From positions 1 to 4,631 of IMG/VR virus record IMGVR_UViG_2675903650_000013: a DNA stretch of 4,631 nt; one strand, written 5' to 3'. Made by a program: the position numbers and the translations under genes. Position 1 is the first letter of the stretch. Every line of letters starts with the position of its first letter. The DNA comes from a virus. Taxonomy: Duplodnaviria; Heunggongvirae; Uroviricota; Caudoviricetes. Of the stretch, positions 1-4,631 are shown piece after piece. The notes under the pieces are model-generated. The model was not told where the DNA came from, ran no database searches, and was given only the letters and a program-made list of their open reading frames with translations.

Positions 1-126
1 CGACATAATCTGAATCTGAGACAACATCTGACAAGGCTGGGACGGAAGTCACTGTCGTTCTCAAAATCGGTGGAGCTGCATGACAAGGTCATCGGGCATT
101 ATCTGAACATAAAACACTATCAGTAA
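1..126 (+). CDS. 3' end of an upstream gene (5' part outside window), hypothetical protein
   Basis: Frame 1 is the only frame open from the window edge: 41 sense codons ([41 protein letters not shown]) ending at TAA 124-126. All three minus-strand frames contain stops here. G+C is intermediate, unlike the AT-rich gene downstream. No motif recognised; about a 1-in-7 chance of such an open stretch at random. Confidence 0.3.
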
Positions 127-164
127 GTTGGAGTCATTACCTTATTTGTTTATTAGGATTTTTG

Positions 165-2297
165 ATGGAACTGTTACAGGAACACGGGGCGATACTTAAA
201 GTTGTAATCATGCCTACTACTGGGGAACAAACCATAATCCAAGGTTTCGATACTGGCCTCCTCAACCCAGAGATATCCAACATTCTTTTTTTATTGGCCA
301 AAACACCAAAAGAAATTAGTGAGATTTTTGTCAATGAAAATGATAACTTTCAGCCTACTCTAAGCGGGCTAAATCCTATTTTTTTAATATCTAAAGAAAA
401 TCTTGAAAAAATACCAAATATTTATCAAACGCCATTTTACTTAATTTTTTGTGCTAAAGAAGATTTTTCGTATGTTTGTGCTTTAAAAAAACATTTTGCT
501 ATACCACCTATAATTTGTTGCAATTCTAAACGCGCTGATCTACCACTTAATAAGATTAATAGTATATACTCATTTGATAAGGTGCTCTTCTCTCGGTTGA
601 AATTCATTGAGGATAAAATAAGAAAAAATCACAGTGAAAAGAAAATATCAACGAAGTTGAAGCGAAGAGGGGCTTTATTTAATAAATCACCTTGGAGATC
701 GACGCTTAACAATTCAACACTACCCAATGAGTTGTTAATTGAATCACTTGGCTATATGCTATCTCCACCAAAAAGAATTAAAGATGGTAGTAGCAAAAGA
801 GAGTTTATAGAAATAATACTTCATAGCGTTGATGCATACACCGAATGTTTAAAGGAATTAGATATACCACTTCCAACGGAAGTCTTACTTTTTGCTCCGG
901 GTATGCACTCTTTTTTATATGATAAAAATAATGACTTTTATGAGTTAATAACGGAAAATTTATCCACAATTGAGAAAAAATTCCTTATTGATGGAGTGTT
1001 GAGGAATCCTGGCTATTCTGGAATTAGACTTGATATAAATTCAGATAGAAAAGAACTTTTTAAAAGTCCTGCTTTCCGTTACCTCACCTCACTAAGACGC
1101 GCTGAAATGCGATTAACAACAGCTGCGATTACTTTATTTAGCATAAATAAAAAAATCCCAGCAATAAGATTGCCAAATGCAATAAATCATTACTCCAATT
1201 ATTTGAAAAATCTTGAAGATCTTGCAACTTCTTCTGGGATAAATAGTGAAGCATTCATCACTAAATCTAAAGCATTCAATACTGTTATTCGAAGAGCCCT
1301 TGGTTGCAAGTTGAGAACATATATAAGTAAAAACTATAGCGATTTGTCCTTTGTTTGTGATGTACCATTGGATTGGATTAGGTTTAATAACATACCTATA
1401 ATGTTCAGTCATGAGATATCAAGAATAAATGCTACGCCTGGTAACGTTCTTCTACAGAGCGCCTCTGCTTTTCCGCGCGTTTTAGTAAAAGCATCTGAGT
1501 TGAGAAAGGTTTTAGTTATACGTTCTTTTGAGCCTGATGATCACTTAAAGTTCATATTAGAGAACGCAATTGAGATATTTAAAAAACAGATGCCAGATCT
1601 TGATTGCGAGATTATTGATGTTAGATCGAAAGCTGAGTTTATTGATGCTCTAAATCAATATCAAGGTCATGTTCTTGTTATGGATTGTCATGGAAACCAT
1701 GATGGCAATGGGAGTCATGGATGGTTAATAATAGGTGAGGATAAAGTGGACACTTGGAGTTTGAGAAAAATAGCAAGAATTCCTCCTATCGTAATTCTGA
1801 GTGCATGTTTAACATCTGCCCTAAGCGGTTCTCATGCCTCTGTTGCTAATGGCTTCGTTATAAGTGGTGCATTAAGTGTCATCGGAACATTACTGCCAGT
1901 AAATGCGATAGACTCTGCTGTGTTTGTAAGTCGGTTGATCTACCGGTTTTACGAGTTTCCTTCGACGCTATCTACAAATTTTACACATGTTAATGTAAGG
2001 CTTTTTCTTTCTGTTTTTCTTAGGATGTCCTATGCAAGCGATTTAATAAGAGGATTTTTATCTGAAGATTTGATACCGAATAATTCATGGAGGAAAGATG
2101 CAGTTGATATTAACATGTATATAAACATGCTTCACCATGATTGGTATGATTATGTAATTAACAAATTGACGATGTTAACGGGGCTCACGAAAAAAGATGT
2201 ACTTGATTTTATCGATAGAAAATTATTCATAACCGAAACTATGTGCTATAGCCAAATTGGATTTCCAGATGCAATCACAATTAGTCTTAAAGATTGA
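165..2297 (+). CDS. Large CHAT-domain (caspase-like cysteine protease) protein with an uncharacterised N-terminal region of about 440 aa; candidate defence or abortive-infection effector
   Basis: Uninterrupted 2.1-kb ORF. The ORF track starts at TTG 162, but ATG 165 is preceded by AGGA (155-158) at 6-nt spacing, so 165 is the likely start. Stop TGA at 2295-2297. C-terminal motifs read directly: HVLVMDCHGNHDGNGSHGW (His-Gly at 1689-1694 or 1716-1721), IVILSACLTS (Cys codon 1806-1808), SGALSVIGTLLPVNAIDSAVFVSRLIYRFY. This order and spacing match the CHAT / peptidase C14-like fold. No Walker A (GxxxxGK[ST]) anywhere in the protein. Confidence 0.85.
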   Translation: MELLQEHGAILKVVIMPTTGEQTIIQGFDTGLLNPEISNILFLLAKTPKEISEIFVNENDNFQPTLSGLNPIFLISKENLEKIPNIYQTPFYLIFCAKEDFSYVCALKKHFAIPPIICCNSKRADLPLNKINSIYSFDKVLFSRLKFIEDKIRKNHSEKKISTKLKRRGALFNKSPWRSTLNNSTLPNELLIESLGYMLSPPKRIKDGSSKREFIEIILHSVDAYTECLKELDIPLPTEVLLFAPGMHSFLYDKNNDFYELITENLSTIEKKFLIDGVLRNPGYSGIRLDINSDRKELFKSPAFRYLTSLRRAEMRLTTAAITLFSINKKIPAIRLPNAINHYSNYLKNLEDLATSSGINSEAFITKSKAFNTVIRRALGCKLRTYISKNYSDLSFVCDVPLDWIRFNNIPIMFSHEISRINATPGNVLLQSASAFPRVLVKASELRKVLVIRSFEPDDHLKFILENAIEIFKKQMPDLDCEIIDVRSKAEFIDALNQYQGHVLVMDCHGNHDGNGSHGWLIIGEDKVDTWSLRKIARIPPIVILSACLTSALSGSHASVANGFVISGALSVIGTLLPVNAIDSAVFVSRLIYRFYEFPSTLSTNFTHVNVRLFLSVFLRMSYASDLIRGFLSEDLIPNNSWRKDAVDINMYINMLHHDWYDYVINKLTMLTGLTKKDVLDFIDRKLFITETMCYSQIGFPDAITISLKD
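1494..1991 (+). other. CHAT / caspase-like protease domain (approximate boundaries) within CDS 165..2297
   Basis: Region spanning the His-Gly motif (1689-1721), the LSAC catalytic-Cys motif (1797-1808) and the downstream small-residue helix plus FY motif. Boundaries are estimated by eye from motif positions, not from a profile alignment. Confidence 0.65.
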
Positions 2298-2328
2298 CAA
2301 CTGTATGTAATAAATATGGCATACTTCC

Positions 2329-2369
2329 GGCACAGAGCGAATATAACAGATCAGGTTTAGCTCTGTGCC
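2329..2369. repeat. Perfect 10-bp inverted repeat (GGCACAGAGC ... GCTCTGTGCC) with 21-nt spacer, in the spacer between convergent genes; possible bidirectional terminator or protein-binding / junction site
   Basis: Arms at 2329-2338 and 2360-2369 are exact reverse complements. The spacer contains a GATC. No U-tract follows on either strand, so it is not a canonical intrinsic terminator. Confidence 0.4.
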
Positions 2370-2404
2370 ATAGGTGTACCAACTCTCATCTGAGCTAATG
2401 CTCG

Positions 2405-2599
2405 TTACTCAATAACTCCCGCAAATTTGTAAATCTTGCGTGATGCCCATTTATTTGGGCATGATTTAATATCAGGATCTGGAAAGTCTGGCCTGTATTT
2501 CTGGCCAGTTCTCCTGTTTACGCTGTTCCAGCGAAGAACGGTCGATACTGAAACGCCACAGAAGTCGGCGACTTGTTTAGTTGTCATTAAGTTGTTCAT
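2405..2599 (-). CDS. Small HTH DNA-binding protein, excisionase / AlpA-like (64 aa)
   Basis: The track ORF 2405..2665 has a non-ATG start. The first ATG (2597-2599, MNNLMTTKQV...) is preceded by a strong SD, AGGAGGTG (complement of 2605-2612). The motif TTKQVADFCGVSVSTVLRW followed by FPDP...KW resembles the lambda Xis / AlpA-type winged-helix pattern. The start overlaps the upstream stop as TAATG. Confidence 0.7.
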   Translation of the reverse strand: MNNLMTTKQVADFCGVSVSTVLRWNSVNRRTGQKYRPDFPDPDIKSCPNKWASRKIYKFAGVIE

Positions 2600-3120
2600 T
2601 ACTTCACCTCCTGCGGTGGCTCCGGTAGCGGCATCCAGTGGGTTACTTTCGATAACCAACACCAAACATACTGTTTATCGTCCGGCATTCGCTCACTACA
2701 GCTTATCCAACCATCCGGAGTTACCGGAGAGTTGCCCGACAGCTCGTTCAACTTGTAAGTCTGGCTTACAGGTTCGGCACCATGAAGCATGGCGGCGCGG
2801 CAGGCGTTCCAGCCTTCATCAAAGCCGACTATGCCATTATTTAAAGACGGACGAACATCTGGCACCATCGGCACTGGCTTGGCTATATATAGCGGCTGAA
2901 CATACCAGCCCTTTGATAACCAACTGTCAGCAATGTTTTTACTCCGTGTTATTGCCGGAATACCTAAGCCATTGTCTGAATGCAGCCATGCCACCGGTTC
3001 TGCTTCCAGCGATACCAAAGCAATTTCATAAGCACGGCGCTCAATATTGTCTTGCACATCCAGACTGCCTATGCGCTCTTTGATTTCTTTAATCAGTTCT
3101 TTGTCGGTAAATGTGGTCAT
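2599..3120 (-). CDS. Phage protein with C-terminal DUF551-like domain (173 aa)
   Basis: ATG at 3118-3120, stop TAA at 2599-2601. The C-terminus DGWISCSERMPDDKQYVWCWLSKVTHWMPLPEPP matches the DUF551-type motif (GWIS..E.LP ... THWMPLPEPP) common in enterobacterial prophage early regions. The start overlaps the upstream stop as TAATG. GGAGG lies 10 nt upstream. Confidence 0.8.
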   Translation of the reverse strand: MTTFTDKELIKEIKERIGSLDVQDNIERRAYEIALVSLEAEPVAWLHSDNGLGIPAITRSKNIADSWLSKGWYVQPLYIAKPVPMVPDVRPSLNNGIVGFDEGWNACRAAMLHGAEPVSQTYKLNELSGNSPVTPDGWISCSERMPDDKQYVWCWLSKVTHWMPLPEPPQEVK

Positions 3121-3482
3121 TATGCCCCTGCCTCCGGTGCCTTTGGTATTACTGCCCAGTGAGTGATATTGACGTTTTCAAGATCCCCGACCTGAAATGT
3201 CCACTGCCATTCTCCGGTTTCCTTTTGTCCCCAGGTGTACCAGAGAGAACGCCAGCCAATCAGCCAGCCTTCTCCGTTAGCATCAAATAACAGAACACTT
3301 TCATTTGCAGGTGGCAATTCAGCTGACACTGGTATTATTTTGTTTTCCAGTGCCGCACATTTAGCTTCAAGCGCGTCGAATGTACGTACTAGGTACTCAG
3401 CATTTGTTTCGTTCACTTTCAGATCTCGCGGTACACATTTCCCGCGAAGAAACCCTTCCATTTCGAAAACATTCATGCGCAT
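3120..3482 (-). CDS. Phage protein, DUF551-like paralog (120 aa), YfdS-like by position and length
   Basis: ATG at 3480-3482 with GGAG 8 nt upstream (complement of 3491-3494). The C-terminus EGWLIGW...NITHWAVIPKAPE parallels the neighbouring gene's GW...THW..P motif. The start region ATGCGCATGA overlaps the stop of the HD gene. The K-12 symbol yfdS is suspected from memory of a 120-aa CPS-53 protein but is not verified. Confidence 0.8.
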   Translation of the reverse strand: MRMNVFEMEGFLRGKCVPRDLKVNETNAEYLVRTFDALEAKCAALENKIIPVSAELPPANESVLLFDANGEGWLIGWRSLWYTWGQKETGEWQWTFQVGDLENVNITHWAVIPKAPEAGA

Positions 3483-4009
3483 TTGCGTAACTCCGATAAC
3501 TCGTTAAAACGTTCCATAAACATCCCGTAGGCATGACCTGGCGACAGTGGAATAACTTTGAACATCTCTGTTGCCGGGATACCTTCCAATACAGGCCAGA
3601 AAGAGCCATCATCAAGTCCGAGATCGCGGCGTTCGGTTGCCAGCATAATGAGATCGGCATATTTCACGGGCGTACTCATAACTGGGGGTAATCCGTATTT
3701 CTCACGGATTACGGAGTCTATTTTTTCTTCCATTTGTTTATAGTCAGGAAGAAGGCGTTTCAGTGGTGCGGGAATGTCCTGGCAATACGCTTCTGTTGCA
3801 TCATGCATTAACGCTTCAAAAGCAAATTCCTGCGGCACCAGCTGGCTGCAAAGAACCGCATGTTGGGCGACGCTGTAGAAGTGCGAAAGATGACCGGCAA
3901 AGCGACAGATATTTGAAAGGGAAACCGCGATATCGTTAATATCGATGTCGTCTTTATTTATCCTGTCATAATAAAAATGCTTCCCGGAAAAAGTTTTAAT
4001 AAATGACAT
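3473..4009 (-). CDS. yfdR: HD-domain phosphohydrolase, prophage YfdR-like (178 aa)
   Basis: The track ORF starts at GTG 4034-4036. The ATG at 4007-4009 (MSFIKTFSGKHFYY...) has GGAG 6 nt upstream (GGAGAACAAAATG), so 4009 is the likely start. HD metal-binding pattern: H in VAQHAVL, HD in EALMHDATEAY, downstream D. Length and start match my recollection of E. coli K-12 CPS-53 YfdR; confirm by BLAST. Confidence 0.8.
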   Translation of the reverse strand: MSFIKTFSGKHFYYDRINKDDIDINDIAVSLSNICRFAGHLSHFYSVAQHAVLCSQLVPQEFAFEALMHDATEAYCQDIPAPLKRLLPDYKQMEEKIDSVIREKYGLPPVMSTPVKYADLIMLATERRDLGLDDGSFWPVLEGIPATEMFKVIPLSPGHAYGMFMERFNELSELRKCA

Positions 4010-4102
4010 TTTGTTCTCCACGTATATGCGCTGCACCGCGCTGAATTCTGGTAAAAAGAATCCCTCACCATCCGGCGATTATTGAGTAAATTACGTTTCC
4101 AT

Positions 4103-4124
4103 AAATGCCCCCGCAGGGGCATTT
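4103..4124. other. GC-rich hairpin: 9-bp stem AAATGCCCC / GGGGCATTT, 4-nt loop, in the 127-bp intergenic region; possible weak terminator, RNA stability element or processing site
   Basis: Arms 4103-4111 and 4116-4124 are perfect reverse complements. It begins 12 nt downstream of the stop of the minus-strand ORF 4137..4595. No U-tract follows on either strand. Confidence 0.4.
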
Positions 4125-4136
4125 GCAGTAATGAAA

Positions 4137-4595
4137 TCAGGCGGTGAAAGTACCAATAAAGGTTTCTACTTTGCTGTCCTTGAATTTCTCAACAAGCAGA
4201 TCACGAAATTCGTTAGCCATTTCTTCCTGCACCGCCTCCAGCTGTATAATGCGCAGAACCAGTACCGGACGATCGCCAGTGATAATGCTGAGGCGTAATT
4301 TAAACGGACGTTCTTTCAGACCTTCAAACGGAATGCATTTAAATTCAAATGCCACTGGCATAATGTCTTTGGTCTTCGCTTCGACAGACTCCATCAGGGA
4401 GCGTTTGCCGCTGAAGTCATTATCTTCAAAATCAGCGGTCTGGTTTGCTTCAATCGTGATTTTACGGACCGCCGCAGCCGCTTTTGTTGCCTGAATGGTG
4501 TCACCATTAGCATCAAAGCCCACAAGGTAGTCGGCCCAGTCTTCAATCCATTCTGCCAGTGATTTCTGGGAGTTACGCTCGCCATTAACAGACAA
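4137..4595 (-). CDS. Hypothetical prophage protein (up to 152 aa); start codon ambiguous, possibly TTG-initiated or an N-terminally disrupted remnant
   Basis: The translation looks protein-like throughout (e.g. ...[45 protein letters not shown]...). The frame opens just after an in-frame TGA (4608-4610). The first possible start is TTG 4593-4595 with no SD; the first ATG is 4392-4394, also without SD. No domain recognised. Confidence 0.45.
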
Positions 4596-4631
4596 CAGAG
4601 CAGAGTGTCACGAACGGTGCAATAGTGATCC

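What the first reader, a model, noticed from the sequence alone, without database searches (positions are those of the whole stretch)
2298..2665. Cargo gene sits immediately beyond the last (Xis/AlpA-like) gene of a KplE1/CPS-53-like early operon, possibly at the prophage end or att junction
Read on the minus strand, the order hypothetical ORF, HD protein, 120-aa DUF551 protein, 173-aa DUF551 protein, 64-aa excisionase-like HTH resembles, as I recall it, the yfdQ-yfdR-yfdS-yfdT-(ypdJ)-torI arrangement at the end of the E. coli K-12 CPS-53/KplE1 prophage, where the excisionase gene lies next to the attachment site. If that synteny holds, the CHAT gene occupies the position just outside or at the recombination module, a place where morons and defence cargo accumulate. 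The partial ORF at 1..126 could then be host-side or other island DNA.
Basis: partly seen in the sequence, partly recalled or inferred. Interest (0 to 1): 0.5.

Follow-up and report, generated by a model that had tools for sequence, protein, structure and literature searches.

The report
Borvo defence gene beside prophage excisionase
The CHAT gene is bovA, the already described single-gene Borvo anti-phage system, carried as swappable cargo between the integrase and excisionase genes of a lambda-like prophage that inserts into prfC; in this window the prophage is a fragment cut off by two insertion sequences, so the finding is real but ordinary.

Summary
The gene order is real. On the minus strand the window carries yfdQ' (truncated), yfdR and yfdS, 96-98% identical in protein to E. 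coli K-12 CPS-53. Next come a DUF551 gene that matches yfdT only in its first 42 codons, and a 64-aa excisionase (2405-2599, not 2665). DNA homology to CPS-53 stops at window 2996, and the excisionase is not a detectable TorI homologue.

The convergent CHAT gene (165-2297) is a full-length match to PADLOC BovA (Borvo, E 2.6e-240) with the His-Cys dyad intact.

It is not at an att junction. In 32 complete E. coli genomes and in phages cdtI and Ayreon the order is attL (inside prfC), int, bovA, xis, early-left operon. The window holds no att core and no tRNA.

The slot between int and xis is variable. The same flanks carry at least nine different AT-rich cargo genes. Four match known defence proteins: BovA, dCTP deaminase, dGTPase and an AriA/OLD-like ATPase. 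Five have no family match.

The window ends are IS1 (1-141, 23 bp upstream of the bovA start codon) and an IS100-type end (4606-4631) that truncates yfdQ.

Verdict: a known defence gene in a prophage cargo slot. Low novelty.

The parts
1..141 (+). 3' end of IS1: InsB C-terminus in 1-126, terminal inverted repeat ending ...GGAGTCATTACC at 141
   Evidence: Pfam DDE_Tnp_IS1 E 2.5e-19. All 32 E. coli matches to the rest of the window begin at 141/142. The sequence was read.
142..164 (+). Remaining 23 bp of the bovA leader with AGGA ribosome-binding site. The rest of the native upstream region, including a promoter-like TTGCTT..TATAAC seen in relatives, is cut off by IS1.
   Evidence: Comparison with L001 11860-12040. 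The promoter assignment is by eye only and was not found by the scan.
165..2297 (+). bovA, the single gene of the Borvo anti-phage system: 710 aa with a C-terminal CHAT (caspase-like) protease and catalytic H509 and C548. The ORF is intact.
   Evidence: PADLOC BovA E 2.6e-240, residues 4-709 of 710. Pfam CHAT. DCHG and SAC motifs are invariant in family alignment A1. 2-5 aa differences from the copies in L001, L008, L009 and L013. 34% GC against 47% for the neighbouring phage genes.
2298..2404 (.). Intergenic region between the convergent bovA and xis genes, with an imperfect hairpin at 2317-2381 whose core is GGCACAGAGC/GCTCTGTGCC. The right-hand boundary of the variable cargo segment falls here, at about 2322-2403.
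   Evidence: Inverted repeat I1. Folding gives -33.8 kcal/mol, z -4.1 on the + strand and z -3.4 on the - strand. The right arm GTGCCATAG is conserved in prophages with other cargo.
2405..2599 (-). xis: 64-aa excisionase-family winged-HTH protein, the last gene of the early-left operon, translationally coupled to the DUF551 gene
   Evidence: PHROG 1553 excisionase E 1e-35. Annotated as excisionase in NC_009514. 98% identical in a prophage with different cargo. AF2 model pLDDT 88.5; the best fold matches are RacA, BldC, RdfS excisionase and Pukovnik Xis.
2599..3120 (-). DUF551 gene with a YfdT-like N-terminus, carrying an in-frame 33-codon deletion at window 2653/2656 that removes most of the DUF551 domain. 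CPS-53 homology ends inside this gene at 2996.
3120..3482 (-). yfdS orthologue (120 aa)
   Evidence: 98% identical to K-12 YfdS
3473..4009 (-). yfdR orthologue (HD-domain 5'-deoxynucleotidase, 178 aa counted from the K-12 start codon)
   Evidence: 96% identical to K-12 YfdR. Pfam YfbR-like/HD_3 hits are weak.
4137..4605 (-). yfdQ (DUF2303), 3' part only. The 5' part is cut off by an IS.
   Evidence: 97% identical to K-12 YfdQ residues 123-274. Pfam DUF2303 E 4.6e-44.
4606..4631 (+). Left end of an IS100-type (IS21-family) insertion sequence, TGTCACGAACGGTGCAATAGTGATCC
   Evidence: The same sequence lies about 60 bp upstream of an annotated IS100 istA in NZ_CP027437. It occurs up to 26 times per genome.

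Best explanation
The window is a 4.46-kb remnant of a lambdoid prophage of the phage cdtI/Ayreon type, which in intact form integrates into the 5' end of prfC. The remnant is bounded by an IS1 on the left and an IS100-type element on the right.

The minus strand carries the distal end of the early-left operon (yfdQ', yfdR, yfdS, a DUF551 gene) and ends with the phage excisionase gene.

The CHAT gene on the plus strand is bovA, the single-gene Borvo defence system. In this phage family it occupies a variable cargo slot between the convergently transcribed integrase and excisionase genes.

Published work on Borvo from E. coli 403116 indicates the likely mechanism. BovA is triggered, directly or indirectly, by the DNA polymerase of an infecting phage (T5, SECphi4, SECphi18), after which the cell dies or stops growing (abortive infection). 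By inference this happens through the His-Cys CHAT protease acting on unknown substrates.

The carrier prophage has no annotated DNA polymerase gene in the stretches examined. By inference, its own induction would therefore not trigger the system.

Shown here: identity of the genes, their order, the variability of the slot, the att site of relatives, and the IS junctions.

Inferred: expression of bovA, the protease mechanism, the effect of IS1 on expression, and the terminator role of the hairpin.
For: Identity of the gene:
- PADLOC BovA full-length hit, E 2.6e-240.
- Catalytic DCHG and SAC motifs are invariant down to 31% identity.

Context in relatives:
- KC-Dl-1 prophage: yjjG, prfC' fragment, int, bovA, DUF551, yfdS, yfdR, yfdQ, yfdP, cI, and so on to tail genes, dinI and an intact prfC.
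- Phage cdtI: int orf32, orf33 (= BovA), excisionase orf34.
- Phage Ayreon shows the same order.
- The att core TTTGCCATTATTTCTCACCC is shared by attB, attL, attR and attP and lies in prfC about 45 nt after its start.

Distribution:
- bovA is present in 32 of 5426 complete E. coli genomes, always single copy and at least 99.4% identical.
- All 32 show the prfC-int-bovA-xis arrangement.
- The integrase itself is present in 698 genomes.

Variability of the slot:
- Eight other cargo genes lie between the same flanks.
- Among them are dCTP deaminase, dGTPase and an AriA/OLD-like ATPase.
- All cargo genes are 31-37% GC.

Mechanism and other points:
- The Borvo mechanism comes from preprint 10.1101/2022.08.27.505566.
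Against: - The source genome of the window was not found. Whether int and attL still lie beyond the IS1 is unknown.
- Nothing here shows that this allele is expressed or active. IS1 sits 23 bp upstream of the start codon and separates the gene from its native upstream region.
- The experimentally tested Borvo protein (E. coli 403116) could not be compared directly. Membership rests on the PADLOC profile.
- The substrate of the protease and the way the polymerase is sensed are unpublished, as far as the searched library shows.
Confidence: 0.85

Rival explanations
1. One reading: the CHAT gene lies at or just outside the prophage end, next to an att junction, as in KplE1 where torI abuts attR.
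For: xis is the last gene of a CPS-53-like operon. GC content drops sharply at the CHAT gene.
Against: - No att core and no tRNA in the window.
- In all 32 genomes and in both isolated phages, int and then att lie beyond bovA.
- The gene is inside the circular genome record of phage cdtI and inside that of phage Ayreon, which was isolated on E. coli K-12 (PMC5764929, seen).
- The recombination module is unrelated to that of KplE1.
Confidence: 0.04
2. The CHAT gene is a core phage gene with a phage function, for example a protease that controls lysogeny or excision, rather than accessory defence cargo.
For: It always sits between int and xis and is very well conserved, at least 99.4%.
Against: - Only 32 of 698 genomes with this integrase have it.
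- Eight unrelated genes replace it between the same flanks.
- It matches a profile built for a validated defence system.
- More distant homologues sit in other prophage slots and in many non-enteric bacteria.
- It has atypical GC content.
Confidence: 0.04
3. The CHAT gene was brought in by the IS1 (or the IS1/IS100 pair) as part of a transposon-like unit, independently of the prophage.
For: The 4.46-kb segment is flanked by two IS ends.
Against: - The same contiguous sequence occurs without these IS elements in 32 genomes and two phages. All matches stop exactly at 141/142 and 4605.
- The two IS elements belong to different families and interrupt phage sequence: the bovA leader and yfdQ.
- No plasmid in PLSDB carries bovA.
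Confidence: 0.04
4. The 64-aa protein is a MerR/AlpA-like transcription regulator (for instance of the cargo or of int) and not, or not only, an excisionase.
For: - It falls below the Pfam HTH_17 and MerR thresholds.
- PGAP names it variously 'MerR family', 'HTH domain' or 'DNA-binding protein'.
- Fold matches include MerR N-domains, BldC and RacA.
- TorI itself has a second, regulatory role.
Against: - PHROG 1553 'excisionase', E 1e-35.
- It travels with this integrase whatever the cargo.
- Fold matches also include the RdfS and Pukovnik excisionases.
Confidence: 0.1

Closest known systems
Borvo (BovA) anti-phage system, described by Millman et al. 2022 and studied from E. coli 403116
   Same: Full-length match to the PADLOC BovA profile, about 710 aa, a C-terminal CHAT protease with a His-Cys dyad, and a single-gene system.
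   Different: No difference was detected. The tested protein itself was not available for a direct comparison. This copy has an IS1 23 bp upstream of its start codon.
Enterobacteria phage cdtI (NC_009514) and Escherichia phage Ayreon (MF807953)
   Same: 97% DNA identity over window 142-4605, with the same order int, orf33 (= bovA), excisionase, DUF551, yfdS, yfdR, yfdQ.
   Different: The window lacks int and att, is cut by IS1 and IS100, and has a 99-bp deletion in the DUF551 gene. In both phage records the gene is annotated only as a hypothetical protein.
CPS-53/KplE1 cryptic prophage of E. coli K-12 (yfdQ-yfdR-yfdS-yfdT-ypdJ-torI-attR)
   Same: yfdQ, yfdR and yfdS are 96-98% identical in protein, DNA is 95% identical over window 2996-4605, and the operon ends with a small excisionase-type HTH protein.
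   Different: - Homology ends inside yfdT.
- xis is not similar to torI.
- The integrase is 22% identical to IntS.
- The att site is in prfC, not argW.
- Here int lies next to xis in convergent orientation with cargo between them. In KplE1 attP separates torI and intS.
Prophage-encoded defence hotspots (P2 and P4 hotspots, Rousset et al. 2022, PMC9122126)
   Same: Conserved phage flanks hold a short variable segment of mutually exclusive, AT-rich, mostly single-gene defence cargo.
   Different: This is a different phage type (lambdoid, prfC-integrating) and a different slot (between int and xis). I found no description of this particular slot in the papers searched.

Membership tests
Borvo (BovA) | Full-length similarity to the BovA profile | tested here: met
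   PADLOC PDLC03831 BovA, E 2.6e-240, 798 bits, residues 4-709 against profile positions 3-715 of 720
Borvo (BovA) | CHAT protease domain with catalytic His and Cys | tested here: met
   Pfam CHAT 26.6 bits against a cut-off of 24. D507-C508-H509-G510 and S546-A547-C548 are invariant in 15 homologues down to 31% identity and present in the window copy.
Borvo (BovA) | Single-gene system with no conserved partner gene | tested here: met
   The neighbours are int and xis, which occur unchanged with eight other cargo genes. More distant homologues have unrelated neighbours.
Borvo (BovA) | Protects against phages by abortive infection, triggered by phage DNA polymerase | not testable with these tools
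   Known only from preprint 10.1101/2022.08.27.505566 for the E. coli 403116 system.
CPS-53/KplE1-type early operon and recombination module | yfdQ, yfdR and yfdS orthologues in the same order | tested here: met
   97%, 96% and 98% protein identity. 95% DNA identity over window 2996-4605.
CPS-53/KplE1-type early operon and recombination module | yfdT and torI orthologues at the end of the operon | tested here: not met
   YfdT similarity covers only residues 1-42. TorI comparison gives E 0.41.
CPS-53/KplE1-type early operon and recombination module | Excisionase gene directly next to the att site; IntS-type integrase; argW site | tested here: not met
   No att core or tRNA in the window. Relatives have xis, cargo, int and then attL in prfC. 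The integrase is 22% identical to IntS.
Phage excisionase (recombination directionality factor), HTH_17/MerR-like winged helix | Sequence membership in an excisionase family | tested here: met
   PHROG 1553 'excisionase', E 1e-35, full length. Pfam HTH_17 gives only 22.3 bits against a cut-off of 27. NCBIfam Xis_Gifsy_1 and TIGR01764 hits are below their cut-offs.
Phage excisionase (recombination directionality factor), HTH_17/MerR-like winged helix | Winged-helix fold like solved excisionases | tested here: inconclusive
   AF2 model pLDDT 88.5. Foldseek PDB hits include RdfS excisionase (TM 0.65) and Pukovnik Xis (TM 0.53), but also RacA, BldC and MerR N-domains. All E-values are 0.02-1. TorI and lambda Xis are not among the top 50.
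Phage excisionase (recombination directionality factor), HTH_17/MerR-like winged helix | Promotes integrase-mediated excision | not testable with these tools
It co-occurs with the prfC-type integrase in all relatives examined.
Prophage defence hotspot | Conserved flanks with mutually exclusive variable cargo | tested here: met
   Flank homology ends about 35 bp after the int stop codon and resumes at window 2322-2403. Nine cargo types were seen.
Prophage defence hotspot | Cargo enriched in known defence genes | tested here: met
   BovA, dCTPase (E 1.6e-163), dGTPase (E 1.7e-104) and an AriA/Old/GajA-like ATPase (E 7.5e-57). Five cargo genes have no hit.
IS1 and IS100 (IS21 family) ends | Transposase or terminal sequence identity and multi-copy distribution | tested here: met
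   Pfam DDE_Tnp_IS1 E 2.5e-19. The 26-bp right end is identical to the sequence flanking an annotated IS100 istA and occurs up to 26 times per genome.

The most novel reading that the evidence does not exclude
The segment between int and xis of prfC-integrating lambdoid prophages is present in about 13% of complete E. coli genomes. It may be an undescribed defence hotspot, and some of its five uncharacterised cargo genes may be new single-gene anti-phage systems. These five are 239, 331, 342, 413 and 515 aa, have no significant Pfam or PADLOC match, and are 31-34% GC.
Probability: 0.4. Interest if true: 0.45.

Novelty: already known. Interest (0 to 1): 0.2.

Why it matters
It matters little for new biology. 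The gene is a described defence system and the phages carrying it were sequenced years ago, although in both phage records it is still called a hypothetical protein.

There are two practical gains. First, orf33 of phage cdtI and its counterparts can be annotated as bovA, and the unannotated 64-aa ORF as the excisionase. Second, the int-xis slot of this common prophage family is a compact place to look for further single-gene defence candidates.

Tried and rejected
- Exact search for the IS1/bovA junction in one genome per species found nothing. No PLSDB plasmid carries bovA. The exact-protein look-up returned only one 3.7-kb draft contig. The source genome therefore stays unidentified.
- A sequence search of the excisionase against the PDB gave only a chance LacI hit.
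- Rfam found no RNA family in the window. The consensus promoter and terminator scans were not above shuffled expectation.
- Literature: the first Millman preprint version does not use the name Borvo. The E. coli defence-island paper and the P2/P4 hotspot paper do not mention prfC or this slot.
- I considered and rejected three readings. The first is a composite IS transposon, because the IS elements belong to different families and the junctions are unique to this window. The second is a core phage function for the CHAT gene. The third is KplE1-type recombination-module identity.

Full report
**Anatomy of the window**

ORF listing and direct reading give one long plus-strand gene, 165-2297 (710 aa from the ATG). 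A minus-strand operon runs toward it.
- yfdQ-like: 4137-4605, open at its 5' end.
- HD-domain gene: 3473-4009.
- 120-aa gene: 3120-3482.
- 173-aa DUF551 gene: 2599-3120.
- Small HTH gene: 2405-2599.

GC content is about 32-35% across the plus-strand gene and 45-51% across the operon.

That ATG overlaps the TAA of the DUF551 gene by one base and is preceded by GGAGG. The PHROG alignment also begins at this methionine.

**Check of the CPS-53 claim**

I fetched K-12 MG1655 2464000-2478000 and compared proteins.

| Window protein | K-12 counterpart | Result |
|---|---|---|
| YfdQ (C-terminal part) | YfdQ | 97% identity |
| HD protein | YfdR | 96% identity |
| 120-aa protein | YfdS | 98% identity |
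| 173-aa DUF551 protein | YfdT | residues 1-42 only, 86% |
| 64-aa HTH protein | TorI | no similarity, E 0.41 |

At the DNA level the window is 95% identical to CPS-53 from 2996 to 4605 and unrelated to the left of 2996. It breaks inside yfdT, before the recombination module.

**The small gene**

It matches PHROG 1553 'excisionase' over its full length (E 1e-35) and is annotated as excisionase orf34 in phage cdtI. Pfam HTH_17 and NCBIfam excisionase models are hit only below their thresholds. TorI also reaches HTH_17 only weakly.

An AlphaFold model built on 11 homologues has pLDDT 88.5. Its best PDB fold matches are MerR-type winged HTH domains, including the RdfS and Pukovnik excisionases, all with weak E-values.

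The protein is 98% identical in a prophage that carries different cargo. I call it the phage excisionase with good but not experimental support.

**The CHAT gene**

Pfam finds a CHAT domain at residues 489-593. PADLOC gives a full-length hit to BovA, the single protein of the Borvo system (E 2.6e-240).

Homologues form a family in Enterobacterales and many other Proteobacteria. In an alignment reaching down to 31% identity, the DCHG and SAC motifs (H509, C548) are invariant. Both motifs are present in the window copy, which differs by 2-5 residues from the other copies.

According to preprint 10.1101/2022.08.27.505566:
- Borvo from E. coli 403116 becomes toxic when the SECphi4 DNA polymerase is co-expressed.
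- T5, SECphi4 and SECphi18 escape through missense mutations in the proofreading cleft of their polymerase.
- Infection at high multiplicity gave culture collapse or growth arrest, reported collectively for Borvo and four other systems. This indicates abortive infection.

A 2026 paper describes Borvo as a system containing a CHAT-protease domain (PMC13645617). How the protease acts is not known from these sources.

**Where the gene sits**

Megablast against 5426 complete E. coli genomes finds 32 with at least 80% of the window. Every match runs from 141/142 to 4605 or ends earlier, none past 4605.

In strain KC-Dl-1 the order is yjjG, a 69-bp prfC fragment, a tyrosine integrase, the CHAT gene, DUF551, yfdS, yfdR, yfdQ, yfdP, cI-like repressor, cro-like gene, and then replication, lysis, head and tail genes. 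It ends with dinI and an intact prfC. This is a complete lambdoid prophage of about 50 kb.

Phage cdtI (circular record) and phage Ayreon carry the same int, bovA, xis arrangement at 97% identity. Ayreon is a temperate phage isolated on K-12 (PMC5764929).

Comparing attB, attL, attR and attP gives a 20-bp core, TTTGCCATTATTTCTCACCC, about 45 nt into prfC and 230 bp upstream of int. The window contains no copy of this core within three mismatches and no tRNA.

The CHAT gene is therefore inside the phage genome, between convergently transcribed int and xis. It is not at the junction.

**Cargo or core gene**

The integrase with its att arm is present in 698 genomes. bovA is present in 32, always single copy, chromosomal and at least 99.4% identical. 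In all 32 it lies in the prfC-int-bovA-xis arrangement.

Prophages with the same integrase and the same xis carry other genes in this place.

| Cargo | Locus | Family match |
|---|---|---|
| dCTP deaminase | L003 | PADLOC E 1.6e-163 |
| dGTPase | L014 | PADLOC E 1.7e-104 |
| 595-aa AriA/OLD/GajA-like ATPase | L015 | PADLOC AriA E 7.5e-57 |
| 331-aa protein | L004 | none significant (weak PADLOC 2TM-effector hit, E 0.0055) |
| 515-aa protein | L005 | none |
| 413-aa protein | L006, L007 | none |
| 342-aa protein | L016, L018 | none |
| 239-aa protein | L017 | none significant (weak Pfam Tcp10_C hit, E 0.009) |

Cargo orientation varies, and every cargo gene is 31-37% GC.

Flank homology ends about 35 bp after the int stop codon and resumes between window 2322 and 2403.

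In IMG/VR, all 11 loci with a close BovA (97% identity or more) show xis, DUF551, yfdS and yfdR downstream of bovA. The 8 of these that extend upstream also show int next to it. Three more distant homologues (65-83%) sit in other prophage cargo positions: next to tail-spike genes, near a P2-like int and CI, and near umuC/SRAP.

**The intergenic region 2298-2404**

It contains an imperfect hairpin at 2317-2381 with a perfect 10-bp core. Folding gives -33.8 kcal/mol, with z -4.1 on the plus strand and -3.4 on the minus strand.

Its right arm and the sequence up to the xis stop codon are conserved in prophages with other cargo. The left arm is shared only with some of them.

On the minus strand the hairpin is followed by AUAUUUAUU. 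I infer that it terminates or stabilises the early-left transcript after xis and marks the edge of the cargo segment. This was not tested, and Rfam has no match.

**The ends of the window**

- **Left end.** Positions 1-141 are the 3' end of IS1. The junction lies 23 bp upstream of the bovA ATG, inside the cargo segment, and removes the native upstream region seen in relatives.
- **Related draft assembly.** Draft contig GCA_039777475.1 begins two bases from the same junction and is 99.9-100% identical. A repeat probably sits at the same place there.
- **Right end.** Positions 4606-4631 are the left end of an IS100-type element that truncates yfdQ.
- **Internal deletion.** The DUF551 gene has lost 33 codons in frame.

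Together these mark a decaying prophage fragment. Its genome of origin was not found.

**Verdict**

The CHAT gene is the known Borvo defence gene, carried as exchangeable cargo inside the recombination module of a known lambdoid phage family whose early-left operon is mosaic with CPS-53. Nothing here is new in kind.

The one lead worth keeping is the set of five uncharacterised genes that occupy the same slot in other strains.

Noticed in passing
window 1-164: IS1 ends 23 bp upstream of the bovA start codon, with insB reading toward bovA. It separates the gene from its native upstream region. Whether it silences bovA or drives it by read-through is unknown. Draft assembly GCA_039777475.1 has a contig that starts 2 nt from the same junction.
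   Followed up: partly
window 4606-4631: The left end of an IS100-type (IS21-family) element truncates yfdQ. The phage segment is therefore bracketed by two different IS elements.
   Followed up: yes
window 2653-2656: An in-frame 99-bp (33-codon) deletion in the DUF551 gene removes most of the DUF551 domain. It is not seen in any of the E. coli genomes or phages listed among the hits; each of these aligns in at least two pieces, with a break here wherever it was checked.
   Followed up: yes
window 2443-2462: A terminator-like hairpin with a T-rich tail lies on the plus strand, inside the xis coding region. It could terminate bovA transcripts that run antisense into xis.
   Followed up: no
L004 2264-3259; L005 2069-3616; L006 2082-3323; L016 1973-3001; L017 1983-2702: Five AT-rich genes with no significant Pfam or PADLOC match occupy the same int-xis slot that elsewhere holds BovA, dCTP deaminase, dGTPase or an OLD/AriA-like ATPase. 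They are candidate defence genes.
   Followed up: partly
L001 10423-10442 (attL core); L010 724-743 (attB in prfC): The phage integrates about 45 nt inside prfC and supplies a replacement 5' end: prfC is intact at attR and a 69-bp fragment is left at attL. From my own knowledge, SXT/R391 conjugative elements also target the 5' end of prfC. I did not compare the cores.
   Followed up: no
E. coli O121 genomes, e.g. NZ_CP028110 5327235-5329366 and NZ_CP176678: In the O121 strains listed, bovA spans 2132 instead of 2133 bases and is annotated as a CHAT protein plus a hypothetical protein. This suggests a frameshift, which I did not check in the sequence. One of them (NZ_CP176678) has an IS600 inside the bovA match; a second (NZ_CP101305) has an IS600 nearby, outside bovA.
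   Followed up: no
L108 469-2607; L111 521-2658; L106 4001-6130: More distant BovA homologues (65-83%) lie in other prophage cargo positions: beside tail-spike genes, near a P2-like integrase and CI repressor (this copy looks frameshifted), and near umuC and SRAP genes.
   Followed up: partly
L001 14264-14458: The 64-aa excisionase gene is not annotated at all in several RefSeq genomes, for example KC-Dl-1. In others it is named MerR family, HTH-domain or DNA-binding protein.
   Followed up: yes
L001 and L011 (whole KC-Dl-1 prophage): No DNA polymerase gene is annotated in the prophage stretches examined. Since Borvo is reported to respond to phage DNA polymerases, the carrier phage may avoid triggering its own cargo. 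This is an inference only.
   Followed up: no
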